From a plasmid: a stretch of 64,000 nt of DNA. This document shows positions 22,344-51,249 of the stretch, piece after piece. Position 1 is the stretch's first letter. Each line of letters begins with the position of its first letter. Both the position numbers and the translations under genes were made by a program. The notes under the pieces are model-generated. The model was not told the DNA's origin, searched no databases, and was given only the letters and a program-made list of their open reading frames with translations. The DNA is taken from sequence record NZ_CP027239.1; one strand, 5' to 3'.

Positions 22344-23072
22344 ATGAGCACTGAAACCACCCACTTTGACCGCGCCAAGATGACGGACCGTGTCGGCAAG
22401 CTGTTCGCCAAGGCTGCCTCCACCTCCAGCGAAGAGGAGGCGTCGGCGCTGCTGGAGAGGGCGTTCGCGCTGAGCGCCAAGTACGGCATCGACGAGGCGC
22501 TGGCCCGCTCGGGTGGCGACATCGACGCGGCGGAGATCGTCACCGTCACTATCGACGTCACCGGCCGTTACCAGCCCGACCAGATCGGCCTGGTCGCCTC
22601 GATAGCGAACGCGTTGCACTGCAAGGTGGTCACGGTCCAGGCTGGCCAGAACCGTAAGTGCATGGTGGTCGGTGCTCGCCGTCACACCGATCGCGTGACG
22701 ATGCTTGCGGGCTACCTCATTGGCATCATGCTCACGCGCGCCGCCAAGACGCGTCCCTCGCATCCGGGAGTGCCGACCGTGGCCCATCGCAAGAGCTTCA
22801 TGACGGGGTTCGCCTTCGCGGTCGGGTCCAGGTTGGCTGCGGCGGAGGACAACGCCGTGCACGACAGCGTCGACACCAAGGGTGCGGCACTGGTGCTGGC
22901 CAGCGATGCCGACCGTGCGGCGGCCGAACTTGACCGTCAGTTCCCCACCGCGGTGCCCGGTCGGCGCCGAAAGGTCGGCGTCTCGGGAATCGACGAAGGG
23001 CGCAGCGCCGCCAACGACCTCGACCTCGGCCAGGCCCGGTTCGCCGGCCACCGGCACGCCCTGACCGCCTGA
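22344..23072 (+). CDS. hypothetical protein (242 aa), DUF2786-like N-terminus (KLFAKAASTSSEEEASALLERAFALSAKYGIDE)
   Basis: RBS gaaaggacat; the N-terminal alpha-helical module recurs in actinobacterial plasmid/phage proteins (from memory, not searched). Confidence 0.55.
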   Translation: MSTETTHFDRAKMTDRVGKLFAKAASTSSEEEASALLERAFALSAKYGIDEALARSGGDIDAAEIVTVTIDVTGRYQPDQIGLVASIANALHCKVVTVQAGQNRKCMVVGARRHTDRVTMLAGYLIGIMLTRAAKTRPSHPGVPTVAHRKSFMTGFAFAVGSRLAAAEDNAVHDSVDTKGAALVLASDADRAAAELDRQFPTAVPGRRRKVGVSGIDEGRSAANDLDLGQARFAGHRHALTA

Positions 23073-23922: not shown

Positions 23923-24126
23923 CACACCACTGACGTAGCCGCTGCTGCCCGCCTCGCTCATTCCGGGGCGGGCAGCGGCGATTTCGCACTCCCCTCGGGC
24001 GGCTGGCTGTCCGGCCACGCCCCCCGGCCGCGGCACCGCCGGCGTCTCGGCAGAGCTGTGCCGGCATGCCCGTCGGGTTAACTGTGCGGACCCCGCCGAC
24101 TGGCAGAGGCGCGACCGTGAAAAGAG

Positions 24127-24396
24127 GTGCTCGTGGACCCGTTGTTCGACCTGGACCTGGCCGTCGCCGGCCTACCGGACGATGGCGGACTGTTTCCCGC
24201 CGGAGCCGCAGCCCCGCACCTCGAGGAACCGGCCCTGGGGCGCCACGGACAACTGGTGTGGTTCTGGCATCCGGGCCACGGCGAGACCGTCGTAGGCACC
24301 TGGTTCGGCCCCGGTCCCCGCGCAGACGCCATCGCCGTCACCTACGGCGGCGACCTGCTGCTGATCGACACCACAACGTGGACGATCACCGTGTGA
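24127..24396 (+). CDS. hypothetical protein (89 aa)
   Basis: GTG start with RBS gaaaagagg. Confidence 0.45.
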   Translation: MLVDPLFDLDLAVAGLPDDGGLFPAGAAAPHLEEPALGRHGQLVWFWHPGHGETVVGTWFGPGPRADAIAVTYGGDLLLIDTTTWTITV

Positions 24397-24533
24397 CCCC
24401 AGCTGCCGTCGGACAGGCCCGGGAGCATGCTGCCGGCCGGGCCCGCGAGCTCGCTCAGGGGTACGGGTCACCACACTCCGCGCGACGGCCGAGAAGGTGG
24501 GATCCACACCCACCCCTGCTCGAAAGGCCCACC

Positions 24534-24962
24534 ATGACGATCGCCTCCCTGAACACCGTGACGGGGCTGCTCATCGCAGTCGACGGCACCACGAGCCGCC
24601 AACCCCTCCACCGCGTCGAAGGCACCGTCCTGGCCGGCCTGCAGGGCCTCGTGGGTGCCGAGGACGTCGAGTCGGTGCCACTGAGGGACTGCCCCAACAA
24701 GCCGGGTAGGACAGTCGACGCGTGGGCAGCGGCCGGAAGCGACCTGCAGCCCAACTGGGTAGCCACCGCGCTGGCAGCCCTGGTCAGTGACGATCACCGC
24801 CGCGTCCTGCACGGGCCGGTTGTACTGCTGACGACAGACCAGCGCACCGGGCGTTGTCACAGCCTGCCCTCCGAGCTGGTGGGTGGGATCGGAACCGCCG
24901 CGTCCCGCCTGGCGCAGGCCTCGACGATCGCAGGGAAGGTCGAGCATGCTCTGCGCGCCTGA
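24534..24962 (+). CDS. hypothetical protein, paralog family 1
   Basis: RBS gaaagg; LIAVDGTTSRQP...LHGPVVLLTTDQRTG shared with 3585..3959 and 30276..30749; the N-terminal extension of track ORF 24066..24962 is Arg/Pro junk. Confidence 0.6.
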   Translation: MTIASLNTVTGLLIAVDGTTSRQPLHRVEGTVLAGLQGLVGAEDVESVPLRDCPNKPGRTVDAWAAAGSDLQPNWVATALAALVSDDHRRVLHGPVVLLTTDQRTGRCHSLPSELVGGIGTAASRLAQASTIAGKVEHALRA

Positions 24963-25049
24963 CCCGCCCAGCTAGAAGCGGCTCCACGGCATGCCCACCC
25001 CTTAGGGTTTTGCTCATCGGAACAAAACTCTCAGGGGAGGCGACTGCGG

Positions 25050-27158
25050 GTGTGTATCGCAGAAGACCAGCCCGGCGGGCCCAAAAGGTGCCCAGCCGAC
25101 ACCGCCAAAGCGGTCGCTGACGCAGAAGCTCGAGTGCAAGCGATCCTCGCCCAGCGAGAGGAAATCGAAGCCAACCTCGCCCTGATCGAAGCGAAGTTCC
25201 TGTCCGGTGACCCTGCAGCGGTCGCCGCGGACCTGGATAGCGCCAAGACCGACCTCGACTTCGCCAAGACCGACCTCGAGGAAGCGAGCGAGCACCACGG
25301 CCTTCAAGAGAAGCTCGCCCAGGCACAGAAGACGCCAGCGCAGACCTACCTCGAATCCACCGAAGCAGACCTCGCCCAAGCCGAACTGGACGCCGACGAA
25401 GCCCGCAAGGCCTACCAGCGGGTACAGCGCAAGACCTCCGCCGCGAAGAAGAACCTCGCCGAAGGCGAGACGACCTCCCCCGAACTGGAAGAGCTCGAGC
25501 AGCAGAAGCTCGAAGCCAAACTCCACTGGGACACCTGCAAGGCAGATGTGAAGCTGCAGGAAAAGCGCGTCGCCGAAGCCGGCCAGTTCATCAAAGACGA
25601 GAACCTCGGCCGTGAATGGGCCGCATCCACAGACCTGCCAGAAGAAGAGCGGGATGCCTACCTGGCTGGGCTGTCCGACGAGGATCTCGAGGCGATCGGC
25701 CGGTACCAGGCCCACGGTCTCCGGGCCGAGATTGACGAAGCGCTGCCCGTTGGCGGGACTCCGACGATCGACGACCGTGAACGTGACACCAGCATCTACG
25801 GTCCTGGCACCATCACCTGGCACCACGGTGGCGCGGTCGAAGAGGTCGAAGGTCGAATCCTGGACGCCGACACCGCCATCTACCGCAAGGGCTACGGCGA
25901 CTTTTACATCCTGCTCAAAAACGGTGACGAGTACGAAACTGTCGGGCAGGCCGATTCCAAGGCCGCAGCAGTGGCCCAGGCGAACCAGATTCCGGTCCTG
26001 ACCCAGATGGAGCCGCTACCTGACGGTGCCACTGAGCTGCAACGCGAGGTGTGGCAAGCCAAGGCGGAACTGCGGGCAGGTGCAGCGGAGCAAGCCGCGG
26101 TGGTCTCATCGGCGAAGGCCCAAGCCGAGGCGCGGGCAAAGCTCGCCGACGTCGAGGGGGCAGCCCGGGACCGCGTGGTGGACCTCAGCGTGGTGGGCCC
26201 GGTCCAGGCTGAGGCCAGGGACGGCCGGCTGCGGCACGTCAAGCGCGAACGGGAGAAGGCCGCCGACGCCGCTGGAGCCAAGGCCCGCGAGGAGGCGCTG
26301 GCTGCTGGAGCGTCGGCGGCGGACGCGGACAAGGCGTACGAGACGGCCCGGCGGAAGTCGCTGGGCACCGTGACGCTGCGCGGCGGGGTGATCCCGCATT
26401 TCAACCACCGCATCCCCCCCGAGAGTCTGGGGCAAGACGGCTACAACGCCCTGGCGCGCAGTGGCATCCGCGCATGGGGCGTGGAAACGGCGAACGACTA
26501 CTCCGTGATCGGGAAACGACTCGGCAGCCCGCAGTCGTGGGGGTTCCACGGTGGGCCGCACAATCTGCAGACGTCGAATATCGACGAGCTGACCAACCGG
26601 GCCAGGCCCTTCCTGAACAACGAGCTCACCGCAGCGGAGCGCAAGTCCCTGACGGCCTACACGGGCGGGATCTACCAGAGCATCAACGCCGCGGTCACCG
26701 GGCGGGACAAGAACCCGGCGTCGAGCATCGCCACCCACGTCTCCCGAATTGAGTCAGCGTTCGGCAAGTTGGCGGCCTCCCAGAAGCACGCGGAGCCGAT
26801 GGTCGTCGTGCGTGGCACGGGCGTTCCGTCGGGTTGGAAGGGCACCACGAAGGAATTTCTGGACAAGACCTTCACCCCAGGCAGTCGCGTCGAGATTGGA
26901 AAAATTACCTCTACCAGCACCAAAACGTCGATCGCTTCCGGGTTCGGCAACGGTAAGGACCCGTACGTCATGGCGATCCGCTCACGCACCGGGCTGGCGG
27001 TCAAGAGCATCTCCAGTCACAGTCACGAAGATGAGGTGCTGATGACGATGGGCACCAAGATGCGCTGCGTCGACATCCAGGAGAAGGGGATGCACGGCCG
27101 CCCGACCGTCTACCTCGTGGAAGAGGACCTCGTCGCTGAGGCCGAAGATGGGCTGTGA
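25050..27158 (+). CDS. coiled-coil protein with C-terminal R-S-E class mono-ADP-ribosyltransferase domain
   Basis: GTG start with RBS aggggagg in an AT-rich promoter patch; C-terminus has LTAYTGGIYQSIN, VVVRGTG (Arg), ITSTSTKT (STS) and HEDEVLM (ExE) in canonical order; no signal peptide. Confidence 0.8.
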   Translation: MCIAEDQPGGPKRCPADTAKAVADAEARVQAILAQREEIEANLALIEAKFLSGDPAAVAADLDSAKTDLDFAKTDLEEASEHHGLQEKLAQAQKTPAQTYLESTEADLAQAELDADEARKAYQRVQRKTSAAKKNLAEGETTSPELEELEQQKLEAKLHWDTCKADVKLQEKRVAEAGQFIKDENLGREWAASTDLPEEERDAYLAGLSDEDLEAIGRYQAHGLRAEIDEALPVGGTPTIDDRERDTSIYGPGTITWHHGGAVEEVEGRILDADTAIYRKGYGDFYILLKNGDEYETVGQADSKAAAVAQANQIPVLTQMEPLPDGATELQREVWQAKAELRAGAAEQAAVVSSAKAQAEARAKLADVEGAARDRVVDLSVVGPVQAEARDGRLRHVKREREKAADAAGAKAREEALAAGASAADADKAYETARRKSLGTVTLRGGVIPHFNHRIPPESLGQDGYNALARSGIRAWGVETANDYSVIGKRLGSPQSWGFHGGPHNLQTSNIDELTNRARPFLNNELTAAERKSLTAYTGGIYQSINAAVTGRDKNPASSIATHVSRIESAFGKLAASQKHAEPMVVVRGTGVPSGWKGTTKEFLDKTFTPGSRVEIGKITSTSTKTSIASGFGNGKDPYVMAIRSRTGLAVKSISSHSHEDEVLMTMGTKMRCVDIQEKGMHGRPTVYLVEEDLVAEAEDGL

Positions 27159-27273
27159 TTGGGGCAGTTGATCGTCGGTGCTGCTGCACCGCGCAAGCCC
27201 CATGATTGACTCGATTCATACCAACGGACTGAGCCTTACACCGAGGAGGACTCACCACCGGAAAGGACACGAC

Positions 27274-27480
27274 ATGAAGGTCAGCAAGGAACAGATCCAG
27301 ATTCTGAACGAGCACATCGCAGAGAACCCGGACCAGGGGCCGCACGAGATCGCCCGCTACATCGCCCGCATCACTGACATGGGTGAAGACGACACTTTCG
27401 CCCTGGCCACCATCGTGAAGCACCTCAAGAACGGCGACCCGCTCCCGGCCGCGTACCTGGCCGAAGACCAGGGCGACTGA
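27274..27480 (+). CDS. small protein (68 aa) between ART and ARH genes
   Basis: RBS ggaaaggac; stop overlaps the ARH start (TGATG). Confidence 0.5.
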   Translation: MKVSKEQIQILNEHIAENPDQGPHEIARYIARITDMGEDDTFALATIVKHLKNGDPLPAAYLAEDQGD

Positions 27481-28583
27481 TGAGCCAGGCAGACAACACG
27501 GCCCGCTACGCCAACGCGCTGATCGGCGGAGCCGCCGGCGACGCCTGGGGCTACCAGGTCGAGTTCACCAAGTACCCGAAGATGCCCGCCTACCCCGTGA
27601 GCCCGCCGGCCGGCGACTGGATCATCTCCGATGACACCCAGATGCTGCTGGCGACCCACAACGCGCTGCACGATGTCGTGGACTTCGATGACATCGACGA
27701 GGTGGCCGAGGTGATCCTCGACCGGTACCTGGACTGGGCGGTAGACCCAGACAACAACCGAGCGCCCGGGACGACGTGCATGAGTGCGCTCTGGAACATC
27801 GAATCGGGCAAGCATTGGAACGCCGGCGGTGCCCGCTACTCGGCGGGCTGCGGCGCGGTCATGCGGCTGGCCCCGGCTGCGTTCGCCCCGCAGCAGTACC
27901 GGCGAGGTCTGGCCGTGCTGCAGGCCGTCGTCACCCACCGCCACCCCAAGGCCGCCCTGTCGGCGCTGCTGCTGTGCGATGCCTTCACCGTCGCCGGCCA
28001 GGCACCGCTCCTGGAGCACGCCCGAGCTGACCTGATGACGCTCGCGACCCGCCTGCCGGATGCGTGGGCAGACGACGACTACCTCCTGCGAGTCCTGGCC
28101 CTGCTGACCGACGACCCGCACGCCTACCTGTCTTCCGCACTTGGCCCCGAGCCCGGCCGTCGCGGGCCGTCGATGGAGCAGGCGTTCACCGCAGCGGCAG
28201 AACGTCTGGCCATCGAAACCCACTCCACCGGCTGGGCTGGTGACCCCTGCGCCGGAATCGGCGAAGGTTGGGACGCAGCAACCGCCACCGCACTGGGGAT
28301 GCTGGCCGCCGACCTGCACCGCAACGGCCGCCTCGGCCCGGTGGAGGCCATTGCCTGGGCGGCGACCAGCAACGGCGACTCCGACTCAATCGCCACCCTC
28401 GCCGGCGCCCTCATCGGAGCCGCCAGCAGCGACCCCGGATTCTGGGGCGACCACCAGCTGGGCCTATGCCTGGAGCCGCGCTACGCAGACGAAATCGACA
28501 ACGCCGCATCGCAGGGCCCCGCAAGCACCCTGGCCGGGGTATCAGCAGCCATGGATCGACCAGTGGGCCTGACAGGCGTCTAG
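27480..28583 (+). CDS. ADP-ribosyl-[protein] glycohydrolase (ARH/DraG family)
   Basis: Family motifs GGAAGDAWGY, SDDTQM, APGTTCMSA and C-terminal SNGDSDSIATLAGALIGA (Mg-binding Asp cluster). Confidence 0.85.
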   Translation: MSQADNTARYANALIGGAAGDAWGYQVEFTKYPKMPAYPVSPPAGDWIISDDTQMLLATHNALHDVVDFDDIDEVAEVILDRYLDWAVDPDNNRAPGTTCMSALWNIESGKHWNAGGARYSAGCGAVMRLAPAAFAPQQYRRGLAVLQAVVTHRHPKAALSALLLCDAFTVAGQAPLLEHARADLMTLATRLPDAWADDDYLLRVLALLTDDPHAYLSSALGPEPGRRGPSMEQAFTAAAERLAIETHSTGWAGDPCAGIGEGWDAATATALGMLAADLHRNGRLGPVEAIAWAATSNGDSDSIATLAGALIGAASSDPGFWGDHQLGLCLEPRYADEIDNAASQGPASTLAGVSAAMDRPVGLTGV

Positions 28584-28760
28584 AAGGCCGAGTGTTCCGC
28601 AGGCTTGAAGACGCCGCGCGGGTCAAGGAGTCGGTGCGGGTCTTCACCACGACGGGGCAGACCTTCGTTGGCCTCCCGTCGTTCCGGCACTCCTGCGCGC
28701 GGTCGGCTTTTCTCTGACGGCGGAGGAGATGACGTCCATGGCGGGACGATGCGTGACTGC

Positions 28761-29180
28761 CTACGCGGAGCCGTCCGTAATGATCGAGCTGAATAACGCG
28801 ACCTTCGTGAGCGGCAGCACCAGCGTCCACTCCTGCGCTTTGGAAGGCACGATGGCCAGGTACCCGACGCCTTGTTCCCAGGCGTCGACACCCATCAGGG
28901 TGTTGCCGCTAAGTCGCGCTGCAGCCGGGTGGTCAATGGCGCGAAGCTGGTCGGCGACGCCCTGATCGACGGTCACGTTCATGCGTTGGGCGGTTGCCGG
29001 GAGCAACGTGGGGAGGATGACGACATCGGAGTTAGGGGATAAGGACCCGACTCCGCTGAGTACCGACGCAAGGTCGTCGATCTTCCCGGGCAGGTCCGCC
29101 ACGTCGTCGGACAGTCGTCGCACGGCATCGGAGAGCTCAGACAATGCAGCTTCGCCGAGGCCTTCGTCATTCGGTTGCAT
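28761..29180 (-). CDS. hypothetical protein (139 aa)
   Basis: Start refined to MQPNDEG with strong RBS gggagggg; upstream part of the track ORF has low GC3 (non-coding). Confidence 0.5.
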   Translation of the reverse strand: MQPNDEGLGEAALSELSDAVRRLSDDVADLPGKIDDLASVLSGVGSLSPNSDVVILPTLLPATAQRMNVTVDQGVADQLRAIDHPAAARLSGNTLMGVDAWEQGVGYLAIVPSKAQEWTLVLPLTKVALFSSIITDGSA

Positions 29181-29341
29181 GGACAGTGCCCCTCCCGTTG
29201 ATTGCTCGTCGATTCTGGCACGCGAAATGGCCCACCGAGGGCGGTCGCCGCCGAACGGTGCGCCACGGTGGAGGAGCTGTTGCCAGGCCGCTCGTTCGAG
29301 ACGGTGCGCTACGACCTGCTCATTCACTAAGGAGATCAGTT

Positions 29342-30253
29342 TCAGGCGGCGTGATCCCCGGGCTCGCCCCATCGCACCCAGTCGCCGTCGTCCCAGTTGT
29401 AGCCGCGGTGCCAGGCCGCGTCGGAGACGATGTCGCGCACCTGCGGAGTGCAGGTGTCGGTGATGGCCTTGTCGGCGGTCAGCCACAGAGCGTCGGTGAC
29501 CCGCATGAGAGCTGTGGTCTCCGCCGGTGACAGCTGTTCGAGATCGACATGCTGGGCAAGTCGGTTGAGCACATCCGCGGTGGTGCAGATCGGGAACCGA
29601 TCGGCCTTGAGCCGGTACCAGACATCGGGCACCGCGTAGAGCTCATTGATGTCGGTCGAGCGGTCGGCGATGACCTGCAAGACCTTCATCGGGGAGGGGT
29701 GGAGCAGGTACTTGATGACCTGCGGTCTCACCGGCTCGTACTCGTCGGCCACGCCTTTGCGCTTCTTGAGGCCATTGCAGTCGTAGCCGCCCACTTCATC
29801 GAACTCGTCGGCGTTGATCCACCGCTTGTCGAGGATGTCCTGGTAGCGGCGCATGTGGGCGGCCTGCTCGGCAGTGACCTCGACAGCGTCACAGTCCAGC
29901 AGCTGCTGGACTGTGATGCCGTGGTTCCACTGCGGCGGTGTCTTACCGGGCTTGTGCTCGGTGCGGGCCAGCTCTGTCCGCTCTCCGGCAGGGGAGTAGT
30001 CGACTGCGGTGAAGTCGGCGCCGTTGCCTGACTCCTCGACGACCGGGGTGCGACCGCCGGGCCAGTCTGCCGGGTCGAGCTGCGGGAACAGGGCCAGGAC
30101 CAGGGCCTCGCGGAGGTGCTCACTGTGGTCGGTGGCCAACTGGGCGATCGCCTTGTTCAGCGGCGCCTCGAGGAAGCCGAAGCCGACGCCGGTGGAGCGG
30201 TCGATCCAGCGGGAACGGATGGGCTCGGTGTAGGGGGTGCGGGGCGTGTTCAT
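29342..30253 (-). CDS. hypothetical protein (303 aa)
   Basis: GC3-rich minus-strand ORF in an operon with 30276..30749. Confidence 0.55.
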   Translation of the reverse strand: MNTPRTPYTEPIRSRWIDRSTGVGFGFLEAPLNKAIAQLATDHSEHLREALVLALFPQLDPADWPGGRTPVVEESGNGADFTAVDYSPAGERTELARTEHKPGKTPPQWNHGITVQQLLDCDAVEVTAEQAAHMRRYQDILDKRWINADEFDEVGGYDCNGLKKRKGVADEYEPVRPQVIKYLLHPSPMKVLQVIADRSTDINELYAVPDVWYRLKADRFPICTTADVLNRLAQHVDLEQLSPAETTALMRVTDALWLTADKAITDTCTPQVRDIVSDAAWHRGYNWDDGDWVRWGEPGDHAA

Positions 30254-30275: not shown

Positions 30276-30749
30276 TCAGCTCTGGTCTTCGCCGCGGGCG
30301 TGGAAGGCGGTGATGGACTCGGTGATTCCGTCGACGATTTCGGGGATCGAGGTGATGACTCCGACCTCGTTCTGCAGTAACGTCAGCGCCTCGGCGCTCA
30401 GGGGCAGACTGTCGCCTGTCTCGGGATTCCCGGCCTGCAGAACCACTGGTCCGTGAAGGACCGCGTTGTCTGCGCCGAGTGCCTGGGCGAGCACTGTTGC
30501 CGCCATGTTCCGGGGCCGCTCGTAGGCGGACATGCGCCCGTACCAGAAGTCGAGTGCCATGCCGTTCAGCACGGCGGCAAGGCGCGGCCCGGGCCGTCGG
30601 TTGAGGGACGGGTTGACGGGCAGGACCTCGGCTCGTCGGGCGCCGATCAGAGGGTAAATGTCCTCCAGGTCGTGAATGTGCGGCTGAGTCTCGACAGGCC
30701 AGGTCGTGCCGTCGACGGCGATCACGAGTGCGGTGGCTTGGTTGCTCAT
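30276..30749 (-). CDS. hypothetical protein, paralog family 1 (reverse-strand copy)
   Basis: LVIAVDGTTWP...LHGPVVLQAGNPETG. Confidence 0.6.
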   Translation of the reverse strand: MSNQATALVIAVDGTTWPVETQPHIHDLEDIYPLIGARRAEVLPVNPSLNRRPGPRLAAVLNGMALDFWYGRMSAYERPRNMAATVLAQALGADNAVLHGPVVLQAGNPETGDSLPLSAEALTLLQNEVGVITSIPEIVDGITESITAFHARGEDQS

Positions 30750-44030: not shown

Positions 44031-45641
44031 ATGCGGACACCCATCTCTATTGCCTGCGCAGCACTCGCCCTGCCGCTGGTCCTGTCCGGATGCACCGCCC
44101 CGGCCGGCACCGCGCCCGCTACCGACCAGCTCGTCCTGGCCACGGCCGACGACCTGGGGGAGTTCAACCCGGTTGCCGGCTACTCCTCCAACGGGGTGTC
44201 CCCGCTGTACGAGGGACTGTTGCGCCCGGCCGCGGCCGATGACACGAAGCTGCCTGCGCTGGAGCCGGCGCTCGCCGCCGAAGCGCCGCAGGTCAGCGAG
44301 GATGCCCGGACGTGGACGGCGCGGCTGCGCGAGGGGGTGCGGTTCCACGACGGCACTGACCTGGACGCCGGTGACGTGGCCGCCACCTATCGGGCGGTCC
44401 TGGACCCTGCCTCGGCATCGCCGATCGCAGACGACTACCGGCTCATCGCCCGCATCGACACCCCCGATGCGCTGACCGTGCGGTTCCACCTGGATGCCCC
44501 GAACCGCGAGTTCGCCTCTCGCCTCCTGCTGGGCATCGCGCCGAGCGAGCGCCTGGCTGGCGGCCCGGCCGCCGACTCGAGCTTGAACACTGATCCGGCC
44601 GGCACCGGCCCGTTCCAGCTCGAGCAGCTCTCGCCGACCGAGGCGGTCCTGGTCGCCAACCCTGGCTACCGGGACGGCGCCCCTGAGTTGGACCGGGTCG
44701 TGCTGCGCTCAGTTCCCGACGACAACGCCCGCGCCCAGCAGCTGCTGGCGGGGCAGGTCGACGGTGCCGCGCTGCCACCGCGCCTGGCCGACAGCGTCGA
44801 TGGCCGCGACGGGGTGACTGTGCAGTCGGTCAACTCCGCCGACTGGCGCGGGGTATCGCTGCCGGTCAATCACCCGTTTACCGGGGAGGCGGTGGCCCGG
44901 CGGGCCCTGAACATGGCCGTGGACCGAGAGGCACTGGTCGAGCAGGTGCTGTCCGGCCACGGCCAGGCGGCCACCACCCCGATCACCAGCGCCTACCCGG
45001 AGTACCACCAGGTCGCCTTCGGGCCCATGGATCCGGCCACCCGGGTCTTCGAGGCCTCCGCGCTCCTGCGGGGCGCCGGCTGGGAGCTCGACGACGAGTC
45101 CATGGTGCGGATCCGGGACGGGCAGCGCGCCGAGCTGACGGTCGCTTACCCGGTCAACGACAGCCTGCGCCGCGAGCTGGCGTCGGCGTTCGCTGACCAG
45201 GTCCGGGCCATCGGTGTCGACGTCACCCTGTGGGGCGCCTCCTGGGACGAGATCGAGGCCCGCGCCGACGAGGTCGCGATCATGCTCGGCGGGGGAGACA
45301 ACCCGTACACCGTCGACACCCAGGCCCGCCGCGCTCTGCACTCACGCACGCCCGCGTCGGGGCCGTTCGACAACCCGGGCGGATGGAGCAACCCCGGCAT
45401 CGACCAGGCTCTGGATGCCCTGACTGACCCGGCCAATACTCGCAGCCCCCGGGACCTGTACGCCCAGGTGCAGGACGAGTACCGCACCGACCCGGGCTAC
45501 GTCGTCCTGGCCACCCTGCGCCACACCTACGCCACCCGCGACACCGGCTACTCCGGGCCCGCTCCGATCCTCGAGCCGCACGCCCACGGCGTCACCTGGG
45601 GCCCGTGGTGGTCCCTGGGCCAGTGGACGGCGAACCGGTGA
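44031..45641 (+). CDS. ABC transporter substrate-binding lipoprotein, family 5 (Nik/Dpp/Opp-type)
   Basis: Lipoprotein signal (LVLSGCTAP); size and family-5 SBP blocks (...FHDGTDLDAGDVAATY...). Confidence 0.85.
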   Translation: MRTPISIACAALALPLVLSGCTAPAGTAPATDQLVLATADDLGEFNPVAGYSSNGVSPLYEGLLRPAAADDTKLPALEPALAAEAPQVSEDARTWTARLREGVRFHDGTDLDAGDVAATYRAVLDPASASPIADDYRLIARIDTPDALTVRFHLDAPNREFASRLLLGIAPSERLAGGPAADSSLNTDPAGTGPFQLEQLSPTEAVLVANPGYRDGAPELDRVVLRSVPDDNARAQQLLAGQVDGAALPPRLADSVDGRDGVTVQSVNSADWRGVSLPVNHPFTGEAVARRALNMAVDREALVEQVLSGHGQAATTPITSAYPEYHQVAFGPMDPATRVFEASALLRGAGWELDDESMVRIRDGQRAELTVAYPVNDSLRRELASAFADQVRAIGVDVTLWGASWDEIEARADEVAIMLGGGDNPYTVDTQARRALHSRTPASGPFDNPGGWSNPGIDQALDALTDPANTRSPRDLYAQVQDEYRTDPGYVVLATLRHTYATRDTGYSGPAPILEPHAHGVTWGPWWSLGQWTANR

Positions 45642-46633
45642 TCCGCCGGCTGGGGGAGCGGCGCCGCGATCTGCTGACGTTGACCGCGCGGCGGGCCGCG
45701 ATCGCGCCGCTGATCATGGGCATGGTGACCGCGGCGGCGTTCGCCCTGGCCGCGGTGTCGCCGCTGGACCCACTGGCCGCCTACCTGGGCGACAGCTACC
45801 AGTTCGCCGGAGCGGAGACCCGCGACGCGGCCGCGAAGGCGCTGGGCGCGGACGCCTCGTGGTGGCAGGCATGGTGGCACTGGCTTGTCGGGACGGCCAG
45901 CGGGGATGCAGGCTTCTCGCACACCTACCGGCAGCCGGTGGTCACGGTGCTGGCCGAGCGACTGCCGTGGACGCTGCTGCTGTCCGCGGCCGGGCTCGGG
46001 GCGGCGTTGCTGCTCGCGGTGGCCGGCGGGCTGGTCGCTGCGCTGCGGCCGGGTGGGGTCGTGGACCGGGCGGTGGCCAGGCTGGCGGTGTTGGCCTCGA
46101 CGGTGCCGACGTTCGTGATGGCGTTGGTGGTGGTGGCGGTGTTCGCGGTGACCTGGCAGGTGGTGCCGGTGTCGGGGGCGTGGGCGCCCGGTGCGGCGCC
46201 GACGGTGGTTTCGACCGCGACGCACCTGGTGCTGCCGGCGCTGGTTCTGGCCGTCTCGCAGCTGCCGTGGATGCTGCTGACCACCCGGCAAGCAGTGTTG
46301 AAGGCTGTGGAGTCCGCGCCGGTGTGCCACGCCCGCGCCCGCGGCTTGAGCCGATGGCGAGTGCTGGTCGGGCATATCGGCCCGGTGTCGTGGACCCCGT
46401 TGATCGCGCTGGTCGGCGCCCGACTGCCGGAGGTGATCGTGGGCGCCCTGGTCGTGGAGGAGGTATTCGCCTGGCCCGGCCTGGCAGAGGCCACCGTCGA
46501 CGCCGCCCTGGGCGCCGACCTGCCGCTACTCGCGGCGGTCACCGCCCTGTCCGCCGCGGCAATCATCGCAGGCACCTGGCTCGCCGACTGCGCCCTGATG
46601 CTGGCTGACCCGAGAGTGAGGGTCCATGCCTAA
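45638..46633 (+). CDS. ABC transporter permease (NikB/DppB-type)
   Basis: GTGA overlap with SBP stop; multiple TM helices; typical permease cytoplasmic loop. Confidence 0.8.
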   Translation: MIRRLGERRRDLLTLTARRAAIAPLIMGMVTAAAFALAAVSPLDPLAAYLGDSYQFAGAETRDAAAKALGADASWWQAWWHWLVGTASGDAGFSHTYRQPVVTVLAERLPWTLLLSAAGLGAALLLAVAGGLVAALRPGGVVDRAVARLAVLASTVPTFVMALVVVAVFAVTWQVVPVSGAWAPGAAPTVVSTATHLVLPALVLAVSQLPWMLLTTRQAVLKAVESAPVCHARARGLSRWRVLVGHIGPVSWTPLIALVGARLPEVIVGALVVEEVFAWPGLAEATVDAALGADLPLLAAVTALSAAAIIAGTWLADCALMLADPRVRVHA

Positions 46634-46739
46634 CCGCGACCTTCGGGCTGCTGCACCTCAGTCGGCCGGCGTGACCGTGGGACCACTGACCACCGCGGCG
46701 GGCACGCCACGTCAGGCCGCCCACCGAAAGGAACACTCG

Positions 46740-47018
46740 ATGACGCTCACAGAGCAGCTGGACCAGATCGACGCGCAGATCGCAGGATTCACGGACTTCG
46801 GCGGCGACGCGACTCGCGCCCTGAACGCGGTAGGGGCGCCCCAGCTGGTGGCCGCGATCCGGGCCGTGGCGACCACCATCGGCCCCCACTATGACGCCGA
46901 GGTGCGGCGCAACGCCAAGTTCGGACGCACCGGCAGTGACTGCGTGTGCGAGACGTGCCGAGCGATACGCGGCATGGTCGACGCCCTCAGCTCCGGGGAG
47001 CACCATGCGCAGCTCTGA
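46740..47018 (+). CDS. hypothetical protein (92 aa)
   Basis: Motif 84 bp upstream; RBS gaaaggaaca. Confidence 0.45.
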   Translation: MTLTEQLDQIDAQIAGFTDFGGDATRALNAVGAPQLVAAIRAVATTIGPHYDAEVRRNAKFGRTGSDCVCETCRAIRGMVDALSSGEHHAQL

Positions 47019-47052
47019 CGATCTTGACCCAGCGACGCAGGGAGAACCGACG

Positions 47053-47451
47053 ATGAACAGCGAAGAAGTCGACGTGGCCGCTGACGCCATGTGGGCAGCC
47101 ATCGACGACACGGGCATCCGCGGGCGCCTCTACCGAGAGGACTGCCTGTACCTCGCGCAGGTACTGGCAAAATCCGGGCTGCTGGCGCGCCACGTCGACG
47201 ACGACCAGGCCCCAGTTTCCGACGGCGAGTGGGTGCGCATCCCCGCAGATCAGGTGCACGAGGAGTGGATGGCGGCAGTCGGCTGGCGCAACGGGATCGG
47301 CCAGACCGAGCAGAACCAGGGCTACGGAGACACCCGGGAAGCGGCCCTGGCTGACGCCCGTAGCCAGCCGCGGCTGCTGGGACTCGGAGACGAGGACGAG
47401 GTCGCCCACAAGGCACTGCGCCGCCTTGCCAGCTCGTGGGAGGAGGCGTGA
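47053..47451 (+). CDS. hypothetical acidic protein (132 aa)
   Basis: RBS agggagaacc. Confidence 0.5.
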   Translation: MNSEEVDVAADAMWAAIDDTGIRGRLYREDCLYLAQVLAKSGLLARHVDDDQAPVSDGEWVRIPADQVHEEWMAAVGWRNGIGQTEQNQGYGDTREAALADARSQPRLLGLGDEDEVAHKALRRLASSWEEA

Positions 47452-48059
47452 GCAACGCCTTCTTCACCGCCGACCTGCACCTCGGGCACCGGCTCGTCTC
47501 CGACCTGCGGGGTTTCGACACTGTCGAAGACCACGACTGTGCCGTCATGGACAACCTCGCCGCCACACTTGGCACCAGCGACACCCTGTGGCTGCTCGGG
47601 GACATCTCCGCAGGGGGCGGCGGCGGTCAACGTCACGCCCTCGCGCTGATCGAGGAGGTGCTCGTCAGTCGCGGCCGTACCGTGCACCTGATCCCCGGCA
47701 ATCACGACGGTGTGCATCCGCTTCACCGCAACGCACTCAAGTGGGATGGCCCCTACCGGCAGGTATTCGCCTCGGTGCAGCCGTTCGCGCGGCGCCGCAT
47801 CGCCGGCCGCAACGTATGGCTGTCACATTTCCCGTGGCGGGGCGGAGGGGACCACACCGACATCGACCGCTACGAGACGGTGCGCCTGAACGACGACGGC
47901 ACGTCGTGGCTCCTTCACGGACACACCCACAGCCTCGAAGCCATCGACTACGAACGCCGCCAGATCCATGTCGGTCTCGACGCCTGGGACCTGCGCCCCG
48001 TACCGCTGGAGGAGATCGCGGCCCTGGTCAACGCCACCGAAGTGGCAGTGCCCAGGTGA
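47448..48059 (+). CDS. metallophosphoesterase (calcineurin-like / PPP-type)
   Basis: DLHLGH, LLGDIS, GNHD and HGHTH metal-ligand blocks in calcineurin-like order; GTGA overlap with previous stop; RBS gggaggagg. Confidence 0.7.
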   Translation: MSNAFFTADLHLGHRLVSDLRGFDTVEDHDCAVMDNLAATLGTSDTLWLLGDISAGGGGGQRHALALIEEVLVSRGRTVHLIPGNHDGVHPLHRNALKWDGPYRQVFASVQPFARRRIAGRNVWLSHFPWRGGGDHTDIDRYETVRLNDDGTSWLLHGHTHSLEAIDYERRQIHVGLDAWDLRPVPLEEIAALVNATEVAVPR

Positions 48060-48175
48060 GCCCGCGACCGCGACCTGCCGGCCCGTCACCGCCGACGCGC
48101 GCCAATGCCTCCACCGCCGAGCCCGCACCCAACCCGAAGAAAGGATCGCCGGGCACCGCCCGACGGAACACCGCT

Positions 48176-48961
48176 ATGCAACGCACTCACCGCAAGATCC
48201 TCGCGTCGGCAACCATCGCCGCTGCCCTCACGCTGACCGCGTGCTCCTCGGAGGAATCGGGCGCCCCAGCCGACGGCCCAAACCACGGCGGCAGCCCTGC
48301 GCACGGCGGGGACACCGAACAGACACCGACGTTCGACTACTCCATGCCGCAGCTGGGCCCGGTCACCGTCCACGAGATGCGCTTCGAGATCCCGCAGGTC
48401 GCGCTCGACAACGAGCCCGACTACGAAGAGGGAAAAATGTTCAGCTCGATCTCGATCAAGCCGATGCAGATCGACGCCCCGGGTGTGTGCGGCATCGAGA
48501 TGAACCGAGAGCTGCACAACGATCCCGTGGAACGGCTGACGCAGCGGCTCTTGGCGGACAACCGCCGCTTGCCCACGCTGCGCACAGGCTGGGGCGATGA
48601 CGACAAGCTCCCCACTCCGGAGGAGGCCCGTGAGTTCGCCGTAGACGTCGTCGCCGGGCAGAAGCGCAAGCCGGAAAGCGCCCTGGACCTCGCCAACCCT
48701 GAGCCGGGCCGGTACGTGTCGGACGACTTCACCAGCATCAAGGCCGTTGGCTCTTGTGCCTCGTCGGTCGATTCCGATGACGCGCTGGTCACCGTGGCCT
48801 ACCGAATGGTCGGGCAGAGGCCAGCCGTCGATTCTGGCGATCCGTACGACACCTTCGCCGAGGCCGAGGTCGGGATCTTCACCAACGGCGACATCTTCGT
48901 CACCGGCGCCGAGATTGAGGGCTGGGAGCAGGACATCAACGGGGACTGGATCCCCGACTGA
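48176..48961 (+). CDS. secreted lipoprotein (261 aa)
   Basis: MQRTHRKILASATIAAALTLTACSSEE signal peptide/lipobox. Confidence 0.6.
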   Translation: MQRTHRKILASATIAAALTLTACSSEESGAPADGPNHGGSPAHGGDTEQTPTFDYSMPQLGPVTVHEMRFEIPQVALDNEPDYEEGKMFSSISIKPMQIDAPGVCGIEMNRELHNDPVERLTQRLLADNRRLPTLRTGWGDDDKLPTPEEAREFAVDVVAGQKRKPESALDLANPEPGRYVSDDFTSIKAVGSCASSVDSDDALVTVAYRMVGQRPAVDSGDPYDTFAEAEVGIFTNGDIFVTGAEIEGWEQDINGDWIPD

Positions 48962-49006
48962 TCCAGCCGAGCCCGAGCATTTCGCCCACACGAGCAGGAG
49001 CCAGCC

Positions 49007-50581: not shown

Positions 50582-51249
50582 GCCTGCGCTGCGAGAACGT
50601 CACCTACCGGCACCCCGGCGCCGACCAGCCCGTGCTGGCCGGGCTGAGCCTGGAGGTCCAGCCCGGGCGCATTGTGGCCGTGACCGGCCCGTCAGGGGTC
50701 GGCAAGACCACGTTGGGTCGCCTGATGGCCGGCCTGCTGACGCCGGATTCGGGAACGATCACCTGCGACGGCCGGCCGGTCGGTGCCCGGCGTGGCCGGC
50801 TGCCGCGGTGGACTGCGCTGCTGGCCCAGGATCCGCTGTCCGCCGCCGACCCCCGCCACAACCTCGGACGGATGATCTCCCTGCCGGCACGCCTAGCCGG
50901 GAAGAGCATCGACGTGAAGGCAGCCGCGGCGGAGGTGGGTTTAGGCCCCGAGCTGCTGGATCGGCTACCGGGACAGGTGTCAGGCGGGCAACTGCAGCGG
51001 GCGTGCCTGGCCCGGGCCCTGGCCCAGCGGCCCAACTATCTGATCGCCGACGAACCCACCGCGCATCTCGATACCGACAGCACGGCCACGATCGCTGCGG
51101 TGTTGCGCCGCCGCGCCGCCCGCGGGCTCGGCGTCCTTCTCATCACCCACGAGCTTGAGCTGGTCCGCGACATCGCGGACGTCACGACGCACCTGCTCCC
51201 GACGTCGACGGAGACGATGAACCCACTTTCGGACCGTCCCAGCCGATAA
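50578..51249 (+). CDS. ABC transporter ATP-binding protein (second ATPase)
   Basis: GPSGVGKTT, VSGGQLQRAC, LIADEPTAHLD; GTGA overlap with upstream gene. Confidence 0.85.
   Translation: MSLRCENVTYRHPGADQPVLAGLSLEVQPGRIVAVTGPSGVGKTTLGRLMAGLLTPDSGTITCDGRPVGARRGRLPRWTALLAQDPLSAADPRHNLGRMISLPARLAGKSIDVKAAAAEVGLGPELLDRLPGQVSGGQLQRACLARALAQRPNYLIADEPTAHLDTDSTATIAAVLRRRAARGLGVLLITHELELVRDIADVTTHLLPTSTETMNPLSDRPSR

What the first reader, a model, noticed from the sequence alone, without database searches (positions are those of the whole stretch)
25050..28583. Tricistronic ADP-ribosyltransferase / small protein / ADP-ribosylglycohydrolase module
Seen in sequence: the C-terminal ~200 aa of the 702-aa product of 25050..27158 carry the R-S-E ADP-ribosyltransferase (ART) signature in canonical order. 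The blocks are ERKSLTAYTGGIYQSIN (Y..Y..IN NAD-binding helix), MVVVRGTG (Arg), GKITSTSTKT (STS) and HEDEVLM (ExEVL ARTT loop). This domain follows ~450 aa of charged coiled-coil with no signal peptide. A 68-aa ORF comes next. The third ORF (27480..28583), translationally coupled by a TGATG overlap, has the ARH/DraG family hallmarks GGAAGDAWG, SDDTQM, GTTCM and the SNGDSDS metal-binding cluster.

Established knowledge: R-S-E ARTs (C3, iota, T4 Alt/Mod, Tre1) modify Arg or other acceptors, and ARH-family enzymes reverse Arg-ADP-ribosylation. ART+ARH pairs act as toxin/immunity (Tre1-Tri1) or as regulatory switches (DraT-DraG).

Inference: this is a cytoplasmic ART with its own eraser encoded on a plasmid-like element. 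It could be a toxin-immunity/addiction pair, an anti-phage abortive module, or a regulator of host proteins (compare T4 Alt/Mod retargeting RNAP, notable given the element-wide dedicated promoter motif). The long coiled-coil N-terminus and the 68-aa middle gene are not explained by known examples.
Basis: partly seen in the sequence, partly recalled or inferred. Interest (0 to 1): 0.85.

Follow-up and report, generated by a model that had tools for sequence, protein, structure and literature searches.

The report
Plasmid ADP-ribosyltransferase, small partner, hydrolase
A plasmid of mycolic-acid bacteria carries an enzyme that tags proteins with ADP-ribose, next to a tiny acidic partner protein that always travels with it and an enzyme that removes the tag; this looks like a three-part toxin/antidote or switch module of a known general kind, but with an undescribed architecture and an undescribed third component.

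Summary
ORF 25050..27158 ends in a C3/ExoS/Tre1-like R-S-ExE ADP-ribosyltransferase (ART). R588, S621, E660 and E662 are invariant in 24 homologues. ORF 27480..28583 is an ARH1/DraG/Tri1-type ADP-ribosyl-arginine hydrolase (ARH) with invariant metal-ligand motifs.

The emphasis of the finding needs changing. The constant partner of the ART is the 68-aa gene, not the hydrolase. It lies directly downstream of the ART in 31 of 32 related loci. It is a uniformly acidic, HTH-derived three-helix protein. The ARH is adjacent in only 16 of 32 loci, but it sits on the same replicon in 36 of 41 ART-bearing plasmids.

The small gene and the ARH overlap (TGATG). They follow a copy of a plasmid-wide promoter-like motif, so they probably form their own transcription unit.

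The N-terminal about 500 residues are not loose coiled coil. They form a conserved, confidently modelled region found in only 26 representatives among 1.84 billion.

The module occurs on Dietzia, Gordonia, Rhodococcus, Prescottella, Nocardia and Mycobacterium plasmids. In mycobacteria it lies directly upstream of a plasmid ESX (type VII secretion) locus.

Best reading: an arginine-specific ART toxin or effector, held in check by a stoichiometric inhibitor and an enzymatic eraser. The target and the biological role are unresolved. I found no description of this family in the literature searched.

The parts
25034..25040 (+). Shine-Dalgarno sequence GGGGAGG, 9 nt upstream of the GTG start of the ART gene
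   Evidence: Read directly from the sequence.
25050..27158 (+). Gene for the 702-aa ART protein (GTG start; product begins M-C-I-A)
   Evidence: ORF listing. Full-length homologues in Dietzia, Gordonia, Rhodococcus, Prescottella, Nocardia, Mycobacterium and Tomitella. AlphaFold model with pLDDT 85.7 and pTM 0.74.
25053..25097 (+). N-terminal Cys motif C-x11-C (CIAEDQPGGPKRCPA, aa 2-16). It starts at residue 2 in every family member.
   Evidence: Motif scan over all loci. The same motif heads a WhiB-like paralogue and an ArdC-like ORF on mycobacterial plasmids. It is modelled as disordered, with pLDDT below 50.
25101..25742 (+). Long acidic helical region (aa 18-231; helices 18-47, 55-90, 96-134, 144-193)
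25767..25994 (+). Conserved five-strand beta domain plus helix (aa 240-315); invariant residues include D246, T247, Y250, E267, G268 and R269
   Evidence: Alignment A1 and AlphaFold model. No fold assignment was obtained.
26034..26363 (+). Second long helical region (aa 329-438)
   Evidence: AlphaFold model and conservation in alignment A1.
26364..26579 (+). Highly conserved pre-ART block (aa 439-510; consensus GGVIPHFDHKIPPESLG...RSGIRAWGxETAxDYxVI...WGF; the window has N at the D and R at the K)
   Evidence: Many invariant columns in alignment A1. The block is retained in short 312-348 aa variants that lack the helical region. The loop at aa 451-457 has low confidence.
26580..27155 (+). R-S-ExE ADP-ribosyltransferase catalytic domain (aa 511-702). 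R588 = 26811-26813; S621 = 26910-26912; E660 = 27027-27029; E662 = 27033-27035.
27181..27190 (+). CTGCTGCACC, a copy of the plasmid-wide strand-specific promoter-like motif. It lies in the gap between the ART gene and the small gene, about 84 nt upstream of the small ORF's ATG.
   Evidence: TGCTGCAC occurs 30 times on the + strand and never on the - strand of the window. The same motif sits in the same gap in Dietzia locus L004, whose ART is only 59% identical. The downstream half of this copy departs from the consensus.
27274..27480 (+). Gene for the 68-aa acidic three-helix partner protein (ATG start, GAAAGGA Shine-Dalgarno)
   Evidence: An HMM of the family hits directly downstream of the ART in 31 of 32 loci. 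The family has at least 162 clusters and no Pfam model. AlphaFold pLDDT 86.8, three helices. pI 4.0-4.7 in 36 of 38 aligned members. Sub-threshold HTH_38, DUF433 and KorB-HTH similarity.
27480..28583 (+). Gene for the 367-aa ADP-ribosyl(arginine) hydrolase. Its start overlaps the stop of the small gene (TGATG).
   Evidence: Pfam PF03747 at E=1.2e-36. The best PDB sequence matches are ARH1 arginine hydrolases. S50-D51-D52-T53 and D300-S301-D302-S303 are invariant in 12 orthologues. It aligns to the Tri1 model only from profile position 64, so it lacks Tri1's N-terminal extension.

Best explanation
This is a plasmid-borne, three-component ADP-ribosylation module that acts inside bacterial cells.

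**Component 1, the ART (domain, fold and catalytic residues shown).** The 702-aa protein is an active mono-ADP-ribosyltransferase. Arginine specificity is inferred from two things: its Glu-x-Glu motif, and the arginine-type hydrolase that accompanies it.

**Component 2, the small protein (co-occurrence shown, function inferred).** The 68-aa acidic three-helix protein is the ART's obligate partner. It is most likely a stoichiometric inhibitor, of the antitoxin or immunity kind, that binds the basic catalytic domain.

**Component 3, the ARH (enzyme class shown, role inferred).** The ARH is translationally coupled to the small gene, and both probably come from their own promoter. It removes ADP-ribose from arginine and so resets any modification made in the plasmid-bearing cell.

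**Net logic (inferred).** Cells that hold the plasmid are doubly protected. The modification persists only where the ART acts without its antidotes. That could be after plasmid loss (addiction), or in a cell that meets the ART but lacks the antidotes.

Functionally, the small protein plus the ARH would do, as two proteins, what the bifunctional immunity protein Tri1 does as one: an active-site-occluding N-terminal extension plus a DraG-like eraser. The target protein is unknown.
For: **The ART is real and looks active.**
- Pfam domains at aa 522-680.
- R588, S621, E660 and E662 are invariant in 24 homologues, including those from loci without an adjacent ARH.
- The STS and ExE blocks align with those of ExoT and ExoS.

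**The closest solved ARTs are toxins with ARH immunity.** The closest by identity and rmsd, both at 22% identity, are Listeria Lmo0066 ('ART-ARH type toxin effector-immunity pair', 8za7) and Tre1 (6drh).

**The ARH looks active and arginine-type.**
- Pfam E=1.2e-36.
- The nearest PDB sequences are ARH1 arginine hydrolases.
- It matches the Tri1 and DraG NCBIfam models.
- Its metal-ligand motifs are invariant.

**The small protein behaves like a dedicated antidote.**
- It lies immediately downstream of the ART in 31 of 32 loci, the classic immunity or antitoxin position.
- It is uniformly acidic (pI 4.0-4.7), whereas the ART catalytic domain is basic (pI 8.7-9.7).
- It diverges faster than either enzyme: window versus Dietzia locus L004 gives 44% identity, against 59% for the ART and 68% for the ARH.
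- Family members show weak similarity to DUF433 and HTH antitoxin-type domains, and one carries the source name 'Antitoxin'.

**Expression of the antidotes looks independent of the ART.**
- The small gene and the ARH overlap by TGATG here, and by 4 nt in Rhodococcus plasmids.
- A promoter-like motif precedes them, and this is conserved in Dietzia L004.

**The ARH lacks the Tri1 N-terminal extension**. The two modes of protection by Tri1 are described in PMC8120803.

**Replicon-level linkage.** 36 of 41 ART-bearing plasmids also carry the ARH.

**Retention without transfer genes.** The module is kept on plasmids typed non-mobilizable (19 of 41). This fits a maintenance or conflict role that does not depend on transfer.
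Against: - No experiment or complex model shows that the small protein binds or inhibits the ART. No multimer prediction was available.
- The small protein has an HTH-derived fold, so it could instead be a regulator.
- A paralogous subfamily of the small protein sits after VapBC pairs, with no ART nearby.
- A 700-aa toxin with a conserved 500-residue non-catalytic region is unlike classical type II toxins.
- The ARH is absent within 10 kb in half of the loci and absent from 5 of 41 ART plasmids at E<=1e-40. It is therefore not strictly required.
- Toxicity of the ART has not been shown.
- No PADLOC model matches any of the three proteins.
Confidence: 0.5

Rival explanations
1. **Conjugation or establishment effector.** The ART protein, and perhaps other proteins with the same N-terminal Cys motif, would be delivered from donor to recipient through the plasmid's type IV or type VII machinery. 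There it would ADP-ribosylate recipient proteins such as RNA polymerase, defence or division proteins, as phage T4 Alt does after injection. The small protein and the ARH would keep the donor unharmed and later reset the transconjugant.
For: - In 8 mycobacterial loci the ART and small gene lie directly upstream of eccA-eccB-eccC of a plasmid ESX locus. Such plasmid ESX systems are required for conjugation of pRAW (PMC4173767).
- In pVAPN the trio points toward the gap that precedes the MobF relaxase gene.
- The conserved N-terminal Cys motif also heads an ArdC-like ORF (Peptidase_M78 plus weak ArdC-N) and a WhiB-like protein next to eccA.
- The large conserved non-catalytic region suits a delivered effector better than a type II toxin does.
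- Weak match to the Alt-like PHROG.
Against: - The ESX link holds in only 8 of 32 loci, and relaxase adjacency in only 1 of 32.
- 19 of 41 ART plasmids are typed non-mobilizable. pNSL1 and pRaL13d show no relaxase near the module.
- The N-terminal 505 aa are not shared with other toxin domains: 26 hits, all of the same architecture or fragments of it.
- The window itself shows no type VII secretion genes.
Confidence: 0.2
2. **Regulatory writer/eraser switch of the DraT/DraG kind.** The ART and the ARH would reversibly modify a host or plasmid protein to tune a process such as transfer, replication or host metabolism. The small HTH-like protein would act as a regulator or adaptor rather than as an inhibitor.
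For: - Writer and eraser both have intact active sites and co-occur on the same replicon in 36 of 41 plasmids, even when about 65 kb apart.
- The ARH matches the DraG NCBIfam model.
- The small protein has an HTH-derived fold.
- Separate promoter-like elements would allow separate control.
Against: - The small protein is strongly acidic throughout the family, which is unusual for a DNA-binding HTH.
- DraT is not an R-S-E C3-like ART of this clade (my own knowledge). The nearest solved relatives here are toxins and effectors.
- The immediate toxin-then-small-gene order and the fast divergence of the small gene look like an antidote arrangement.
Confidence: 0.15
3. **Anti-phage abortive-infection or exclusion module.** Phage infection would release or activate the ART, for example through loss of the labile small inhibitor. 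The ART would then ADP-ribosylate host or phage proteins and stop the infection.
For: - Gordonia and Mycobacterium phages carry stand-alone ARHs of the same subfamily: 46% identity over the full length, E=9e-85, phrog_22100 at E=6.7e-59. These phage ARHs have no adjacent ART, as expected of a counter-defence that erases Arg-ADP-ribose.
- The window carries other conflict genes, including an MmeI-type restriction-modification enzyme.
- ART-based defence systems exist, for example CmdTAC (PMC11618068, listed).
Against: - No PADLOC model matches.
- No sensor or NTPase component lies nearby.
- The module's own ARH would counteract the defence unless it is regulated.
- Phage ARHs could serve other purposes.
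Confidence: 0.12

Closest known systems
Tre1-Tri1 (Serratia proteamaculans type VI secretion ART toxin and bifunctional ARH immunity; PDB 6DRE, 6DRH)
   Same: - Arginine-type DraG/ARH hydrolase encoded with it: NCBIfam Tri1 model at E=6e-7.
- The proposed double protection, by occlusion plus erasure, parallels what is described for Tri1 (PMC8120803).
   Different: - No PAAR or type VI secretion context.
- The ART carries a 500-residue helical and beta N-terminal region.
- The ARH lacks the Tri1 N-terminal extension: the alignment starts at profile position 64.
- A separate 68-aa protein is the constant partner, and it shows no sequence similarity to Tri1.
- The scores are far below the Tri1 equivalog cut-off (28.5 against 490 bits).
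Listeria monocytogenes Lmo0066 ART-ARH toxin effector-immunity pair (PDB 8za7)
   Different: It is a short (about 180 residue) Firmicute ART. No small third component is known to me. I found no paper describing the system in the library, so the comparison rests on the structure title only.
C3 / ExoS / ExoT / Vis / VIP2-iota family of R-S-E mono-ARTs (Pfam PF03496, PF01129)
   Same: Fold and catalytic motif order. The ExE motif is typical of the arginine-specific members (ExoS, ExoT, Vis, iota, ART2), not of the QxE asparagine-specific C3 (the specificity rule is established knowledge).
   Different: Those are secreted toxins acting on eukaryotic targets. This protein has no signal peptide, sits on plasmids of soil and animal-associated actinobacteria, and comes with an eraser. 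That implies a bacterial intracellular target.
DraT-DraG nitrogenase switch
   Same: A writer plus a DraG-family arginine eraser encoded by the same genome. The DraG TIGRFAM model matches weakly (E=4e-6).
   Different: The score is far below the DraG equivalog cut-off (26 against 337 bits). There is no nif context. The ART belongs to the C3-like toxin clade, not to DraT.
Phage T4 Alt (injected RNA-polymerase ART) and polyvalent proteins of conjugative elements
   Same: A large mobile-element protein with a C-terminal R-S-E ART. Weak match to the Alt-like PHROG (E=3e-4). The concept of an effector delivered together with the DNA comes from PMC5512222.
   Different: - tblastn finds no phage homologue.
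- According to PMC5512222, the ARTs of polyvalent proteins belong to a different clade from the R-S-E Alt/VIP2 one.
- There are no MuF, portal, ArdC or helicase domains in this protein.

Membership tests
R-S-E (C3/ExoS-like) mono-ADP-ribosyltransferases (Pfam PF03496 / PF01129) | Sequence match above the curated Pfam cut-off | tested here: met
   PF03496 scores 38 bits against a cut-off of 23.4. PF01129 scores 34.8 bits against 22.3.
R-S-E (C3/ExoS-like) mono-ADP-ribosyltransferases (Pfam PF03496 / PF01129) | ART fold (split beta-sandwich with an N-terminal helical lobe) | tested here: met
   [not shown]
R-S-E (C3/ExoS-like) mono-ADP-ribosyltransferases (Pfam PF03496 / PF01129) | Catalytic Arg, Ser-Thr-Ser and Glu-x-Glu in order, and conserved | tested here: met
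   R588, T620, S621, T624, E660 and E662 are invariant in 24 sequences. The STS and ExE blocks align to those of ExoT.
R-S-E (C3/ExoS-like) mono-ADP-ribosyltransferases (Pfam PF03496 / PF01129) | NAD-dependent ADP-ribosyl transfer to arginine | not testable with these tools
   Needs an enzyme assay. Arginine specificity is inferred from the ExE motif and the ARH1-like partner.
DraG/ARH ADP-ribosylglycohydrolases (Pfam PF03747) | Sequence match above the curated cut-off over the whole domain | tested here: met
   127.3 bits against a cut-off of 26.2, covering profile positions 2-278 of 287.
DraG/ARH ADP-ribosylglycohydrolases (Pfam PF03747) | Conserved acidic and Thr/Ser ligands of the binuclear metal site | tested here: met
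   S50-D51-D52-T53 and D300-S301-D302-S303 are invariant in 12 orthologues. The SDDT block aligns with that of human ARH1.
Tri1-type bifunctional immunity proteins (NCBIfam NF041672) | Equivalog-level sequence match | tested here: not met
   28.5 bits against a cut-off of 490.
Tri1-type bifunctional immunity proteins (NCBIfam NF041672) | N-terminal extension that occludes the toxin's active site | tested here: not met
   The ARH aligns to the Tri1 profile from position 64, and the Pfam domain starts at residue 13, so no extension is present.
DraT/DraG regulatory pair (TIGR02662) | Equivalog-level DraG match and nif context | tested here: not met
   26.3 bits against a cut-off of 337. No nitrogenase genes were seen in the window.
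Type II toxin-antitoxin / polymorphic-toxin immunity arrangement | A small partner gene immediately adjacent to the toxin gene and co-conserved with it | tested here: met
   The small-protein HMM hits directly downstream of the ART in 31 of 32 loci.
Type II toxin-antitoxin / polymorphic-toxin immunity arrangement | Direct binding and neutralisation of the toxin by the partner | not testable with these tools
   No complex prediction or experiment was available. Only the charge complementarity is seen.
Polymorphic toxins (shared N-terminal trafficking region with varied C-terminal toxin domains) | The same N-terminal region fused to different toxin domains in relatives | tested here: not met
   A search with the N-terminal 505 aa returned 26 representatives, all of the same ART architecture or fragments of it. 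Only the first 20-130 residues are shared with non-toxin proteins, namely the WhiB-like and ArdC-like ones.
Type VII (ESX) secretion substrates | Genomic linkage to an ESX locus | tested here: inconclusive
   Adjacent to eccA, eccB and eccC in 8 of 32 loci, all from mycobacterial (Mycobacteriaceae) genomes. Not so in the window or in the Rhodococcus or Dietzia loci.
Type VII (ESX) secretion substrates | Helix-turn-helix with WxG / YxxxD/E signal, or an LXG-like domain with WXG100-like partners | tested here: not met
   [not shown]
Known anti-phage defence systems (PADLOC-DB 2.0) | Match to any defence-system protein model | tested here: not met
   No hit for any of the three proteins at E<=0.01.

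The most novel reading that the evidence does not exclude
The ART protein, the ArdC-like protein and the WhiB-like protein share the N-terminal Cys motif. On this reading, all three are cargo that mycolic-acid-bacterial plasmids send into the recipient during conjugation, in mycobacteria through the plasmid ESX / type IV-like apparatus. The motif would be the translocation or DNA-coupling signal. The ART would rewrite recipient proteins by arginine ADP-ribosylation. The small protein plus the ARH would form a split, two-protein version of bifunctional Tri1 immunity that protects the donor and later resets the transconjugant. This would be the first protein effector known for ESX-dependent plasmid conjugation, and a plasmid counterpart of phage T4 Alt.
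Probability: 0.12. Interest if true: 0.85.

Novelty: new variant of a known kind. Interest (0 to 1): 0.6.

Why it matters
ART toxins paired with ARH-type immunity are known from type VI secretion (Tre1-Tri1) and from a Listeria pair. Writer/eraser switches are known from nitrogen fixation.

This family is different in four ways:
- It has a conserved 700-residue architecture that is restricted to plasmids of Mycobacteriales.
- It has an obligate third component, a small acidic HTH-derived protein with no Pfam family.
- Its eraser can be adjacent, distant on the same plasmid, or missing.
- It sits in the backbone of medically and environmentally relevant plasmids: the Prescottella equi pVAPN virulence plasmid, Mycobacterium avium ESX plasmids and Rhodococcus catabolic megaplasmids.

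If the small protein is a direct ART inhibitor, the module shows that the two functions of Tri1 can be split between two genes. It would also offer a compact, testable system for arginine ADP-ribosylation inside actinobacteria.

Related stand-alone ARHs in actinophages hint at a wider ADP-ribosylation conflict in these hosts.

The family is auto-annotated in RefSeq. I found no description of it in the literature searched.

Tried and rejected
1. **Phage origin or a MuF/Alt-type packaged ART.** tblastn of the ART protein against 50,697 phage records found nothing. Only the ARH has phage relatives.
2. **Polymorphic-toxin reading.** The N-terminal 505 aa are not shared with other toxin domains.
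4. **Small protein as homologue of Tri1's N-terminal extension.** A profile search of PDB sequences gives no Tri1 hit. The resemblance is functional analogy only.
5. **Small protein as a classical DNA-binding HTH.** The fold and weak Pfam matches point to an HTH origin. Its uniformly acidic charge argues against DNA binding. This is not excluded.
6. **Leading-region argument from pVAPN.** The relaxase is adjacent only there. pNSL1 and pRaL13d have none nearby.
7. **Known defence system.** No PADLOC hit.
8. **Sigma-70 promoter and intrinsic terminator scan of 24000-29600.** Nothing above chance.
9. **Flanking repeats that might define a mobile cassette.** Only short, chance-level repeats were found. 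The flanking DUF3846-like genes are paralogues.
10. **Literature searches** for the family on Rhodococcus and Mycobacterium plasmids and in the pRAW and pVAPN papers found no mention of it.
11. **First attempts at domain scans** failed because of wrong small-ORF coordinates, and later a wrong L016 frame.

Full report
**1. What is there**

The window is 64-73% G+C. It is nearly identical in gene order to a Dietzia cinnamea contig. The closest ART homologues are 85-94% identical and include a Gordonia sequence.

Three ORFs lie head to tail on the + strand:
- 25050..27158: 702 aa, GTG start preceded by GGGGAGG.
- 27274..27480: 68 aa, ATG start preceded by GAAAGGA.
- 27480..28583: 367 aa, whose ATG overlaps the previous stop codon as TGATG.

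Pfam assigns ADPrib_exo_Tox and ART to aa 522-680 of the first protein. It assigns ADP_ribosyl_GH (E=1.2e-36) to nearly the whole third protein. It assigns nothing to the 68-aa protein.

**2. The transferase**

An alignment of 24 homologues from Gordonia, Dietzia, Rhodococcus, Prescottella, Nocardia, Mycobacterium, Mycolicibacterium and Tomitella shows these residues to be invariant: R588, T620, S621, T624, E660 and E662, and the NAD-pocket residues Y537, Y542 and N546.

The AlphaFold model built on that alignment is confident (pLDDT 85.7, pTM 0.74). Its C-terminal domain matches:
- ExoS, XopAI, Plx2A, C3, VIP2, CDTa, iota, HopU1, Vis and Certhrax by Foldseek, with best E=7.5e-8.

A family profile aligns the STS and E-D-E blocks onto the STS and E-x-E of ExoT and ExoS. 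By established knowledge, the Glu-x-Glu form of the ARTT motif marks arginine-specific members. That fits the partner hydrolase.

The protein has no hydrophobic segment, so it acts in the cytoplasm unless it is exported by a specialised system.

**3. The non-catalytic 500 residues**

They are not loose coiled coil. The model shows:
- four long helices (aa 18-193),
- a five-stranded beta domain with a helix (aa 250-313),
- further long helices (aa 329-438),
- a very conserved block just before the catalytic core (aa 439-510).

That last block has many invariant positions. It is kept even in 312-348-aa relatives that lack the helical part.

Every family member starts, at residue 2, with a Cys motif. 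In the window this is MCIAEDQPGGPKRCPA. In most relatives it is MCRSxxHGxGRRCPGCG. On mycobacterial plasmids the first 90-130 residues recur, at about 62% identity, on a roughly 300-aa WhiB-like protein next to eccA. The short form of the motif also heads an ArdC-like metallopeptidase ORF.

**4. The hydrolase**

Its nearest solved sequences are the ARH1 ADP-ribosyl-arginine hydrolases. It also matches the Tri1 and DraG NCBIfam models, far below their equivalog cut-offs.

The two metal-ligand motifs, S50-D51-D52-T53 and D300-S301-D302-S303, are invariant in 12 orthologues.

It aligns to the Tri1 model only from profile position 64. It therefore lacks the N-terminal extension with which Tri1 plugs the active site of Tre1 (PMC8120803).

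Stand-alone ARHs of the same subfamily occur in Gordonia and Mycobacterium phages, without any adjacent ART (46% identity, E=9e-85).

**5. The small protein is the constant partner**

I fetched 32 related loci: three annotated plasmids and 29 genome contigs. An HMM built from 13 small proteins finds a family member directly downstream of the ART in 31 of the 32. In the remaining locus it lies 7 kb away.

What the family looks like:
- At least 162 clusters, and no Pfam model.
- It models confidently as three helices (pLDDT 86.8).
- It gives only weak, sub-threshold matches to homeodomain-like or HTH folds and families: HTH_38 in 19 of 38 members, DUF433 in 17 of 38, and the KorB HTH.
- It is uniformly acidic (pI 4.0-4.7 in 36 of 38 members). 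The ART catalytic domain is basic (pI 8.7-9.7).
- It diverges faster than either enzyme: window versus Dietzia L004 gives 44% identity, against 59% for the ART and 68% for the ARH.

A second subfamily follows VapB/VapC pairs in ESX-associated regions of M. avium plasmids. So the fold is not exclusive to ART partners.

**6. The hydrolase is a looser partner**

The ARH is adjacent in 16 of 32 loci (Rhodococcus, Prescottella, Dietzia, Aldersonia). It is absent within 10 kb in the mycobacterial and Nocardia loci.

At the level of whole plasmids the link is strong. 41 PLSDB plasmids carry the ART and 39 carry the ARH (E<=1e-40); 36 carry both. These include both M. avium plasmids, where the ARH stands alone about 65 kb from the ART.

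The ART catalytic residues are intact whether or not an ARH is adjacent.

**7. Transcription units**

The octamer TGCTGCAC occurs 30 times on the + strand of the window and never on the - strand. It usually lies 70-85 nt upstream of a Shine-Dalgarno sequence and an ATG. A second conserved element follows about 16 nt downstream.

One copy lies at 27182, in the 115-nt gap between the ART gene and the small gene. None lies directly upstream of the ART; the nearest is at 22081.

The Dietzia locus L004 shows the same strand-specific motif, again with a copy in the same gap, although its ART is only 59% identical. The downstream half of the 27182 copy departs from the consensus.

I infer that the small gene and the ARH form their own unit. 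The ART would be the last gene of an upstream operon. This needs transcript mapping.

**8. Genomic company**

The module rides on at least three backbones:
- In Rhodococcus, Prescottella and Nocardia plasmids it follows a conserved set: ParA, DUF2637, two hypothetical proteins and a 660-aa cutinase-family protein. In pVAPN alone it precedes the MobF relaxase.
- In eight mycobacterial loci it lies directly upstream of eccA-eccB-eccC of a plasmid ESX locus. Plasmid ESX systems of this kind are needed for conjugation of pRAW (PMC4173767).
- In the window and in Dietzia it sits among small hypothetical genes: DUF2786/DUF7168 upstream, and DUF3846-like paralogues on both sides.

19 of the 41 ART plasmids are typed non-mobilizable. 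pNSL1 and pRaL13d have no relaxase near the module.

**9. Interpretation**

Shown:
- an active-looking arginine-type ART,
- an active-looking arginine-type eraser,
- an obligate small acidic partner,
- plasmid residence.

Inferred: the small protein inhibits the ART by direct binding, and the ARH erases stray modification. Together the two would supply, as two proteins, the two kinds of protection that Tri1 supplies as one. The antidotes would be expressed independently of the ART.

This toxin/antidote logic is my best explanation (confidence about 0.5). It leaves open whether the pay-off is addiction, exclusion of competitors or phages, or action in conjugation recipients.

The rivals are:
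- a delivered conjugation effector (0.2),
- a DraT/DraG-like regulatory switch (0.15),
- an anti-phage module (0.12).

The target cannot be predicted from sequence.

**10. Novelty**

The enzymes are auto-annotated in RefSeq, and the general ART/ARH theme is known. The following were not described in any paper I could find:
- the 700-residue architecture,
- the small obligate partner,
- the variable placement of the eraser,
- the association with ESX-type conjugative plasmids and the pVAPN backbone.

I rate it a new variant of a known kind, of moderate to high interest.

Noticed in passing
window, 30 sites on the + strand (e.g. 3517, 4077, 6694, 11592, 19416, 21420, 22081, 27182, 39170, 56269): The octamer TGCTGCAC (extended form CTGCTGCACC) occurs 30 times on the + strand and never on the - strand. 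It is typically 70-85 nt upstream of a Shine-Dalgarno sequence and an ATG. A second conserved element (GgGAc.gTG) follows about 16 nt downstream. It looks like a dedicated, non-sigma-70 bipartite promoter used across the plasmid. The related Dietzia locus L004 has 7 copies on the + strand and none on the - strand.
   Followed up: partly
window 51486-54308 (- strand): A 940-aa MmeI-family type IIL restriction-modification enzyme with all five MmeI Pfam domains.
   Followed up: no
window 44031-51249 (+ strand): A peptide/nickel-type ABC transporter cluster: a SBP_bac_5 solute-binding protein, permeases, and a fused permease-ATPase. This is cargo unrelated to the ART module.
   Followed up: no
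window 58517-60700 (+ strand): A 727-aa protein with a weak archaeo-eukaryotic primase (AEP-TOTE) match and a winged-helix region. It may be the plasmid's replication or priming protein.
   Followed up: no
window 24516-24962 (+) and 30276-30749 (-): Two DUF3846-like paralogues (34% identity over 124 aa, E=6e-10) lie in inverted orientation around the ART module and its neighbours. No flanking DNA repeats were found.
   Followed up: partly
window 22347-23072 (+ strand): A DUF2786 + DUF7168 protein at the head of the gene run that ends with the ART gene. The same arrangement is seen in the Dietzia contigs.
   Followed up: no
L043 2896-3981 (- strand; M. avium plasmid p1-JPH1): An ArdC-like ORF (Peptidase_M78 at E=5e-6, ArdC-N at E=0.0017). 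If its start is moved 38 codons upstream of the annotated one, the product begins VCRATTDPGGPRRCSGDT, which is the same N-terminal Cys motif as the window's ART (MCIAEDQPGGPKRCPADT).
   Followed up: partly
L017 12707-13621, L044 11564-12322 and equivalents in L015, L021-L025, L028 and L029: A roughly 250-300-aa protein next to eccA. It shares the first 90-130 residues with the ART protein (about 62% identity) and ends in a WhiB-like Cys cluster (Pfam Whib E about 0.007).
   Followed up: partly
L033-L036 6001-6219; L015 731-955; L018 2269-2484: A second subfamily of the small protein (MLNILQRNVIRGYLDxGMSPEEIADYLGRVNDL...). It lies immediately after a VapB/VapC (PIN) pair, within EspC-like, DUF4226 and EspK_C regions of M. 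avium plasmids.
   Followed up: partly
L041 3969-4991 (Gordonia phage Aleemily gp114); L042 3850-4851 (Mycobacterium phage Phrappuccino gp191): Stand-alone phage ARHs closely related to the plasmid ARH (46% identity for Aleemily), with no ART gene nearby. They may be a phage counter-measure against arginine ADP-ribosylation.
   Followed up: partly
L007 12407-13055; L010 9475-11839: Possible decay of single components. The ARH of Rhodococcus sp. SMB37 (L007) appears split into two ORFs, while its ART and small gene are intact. The second ART copy of R. opacus 1CP (L010) is split into 170 + 635 aa, while its small gene and ARH are intact. Sequencing errors are not excluded.
   Followed up: no
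window 25230-25271: A 21-nt tandem duplication inside the ART gene. It encodes the repeated heptad DLDSAKT / DLDFAKT in the first helical hairpin.
   Followed up: no
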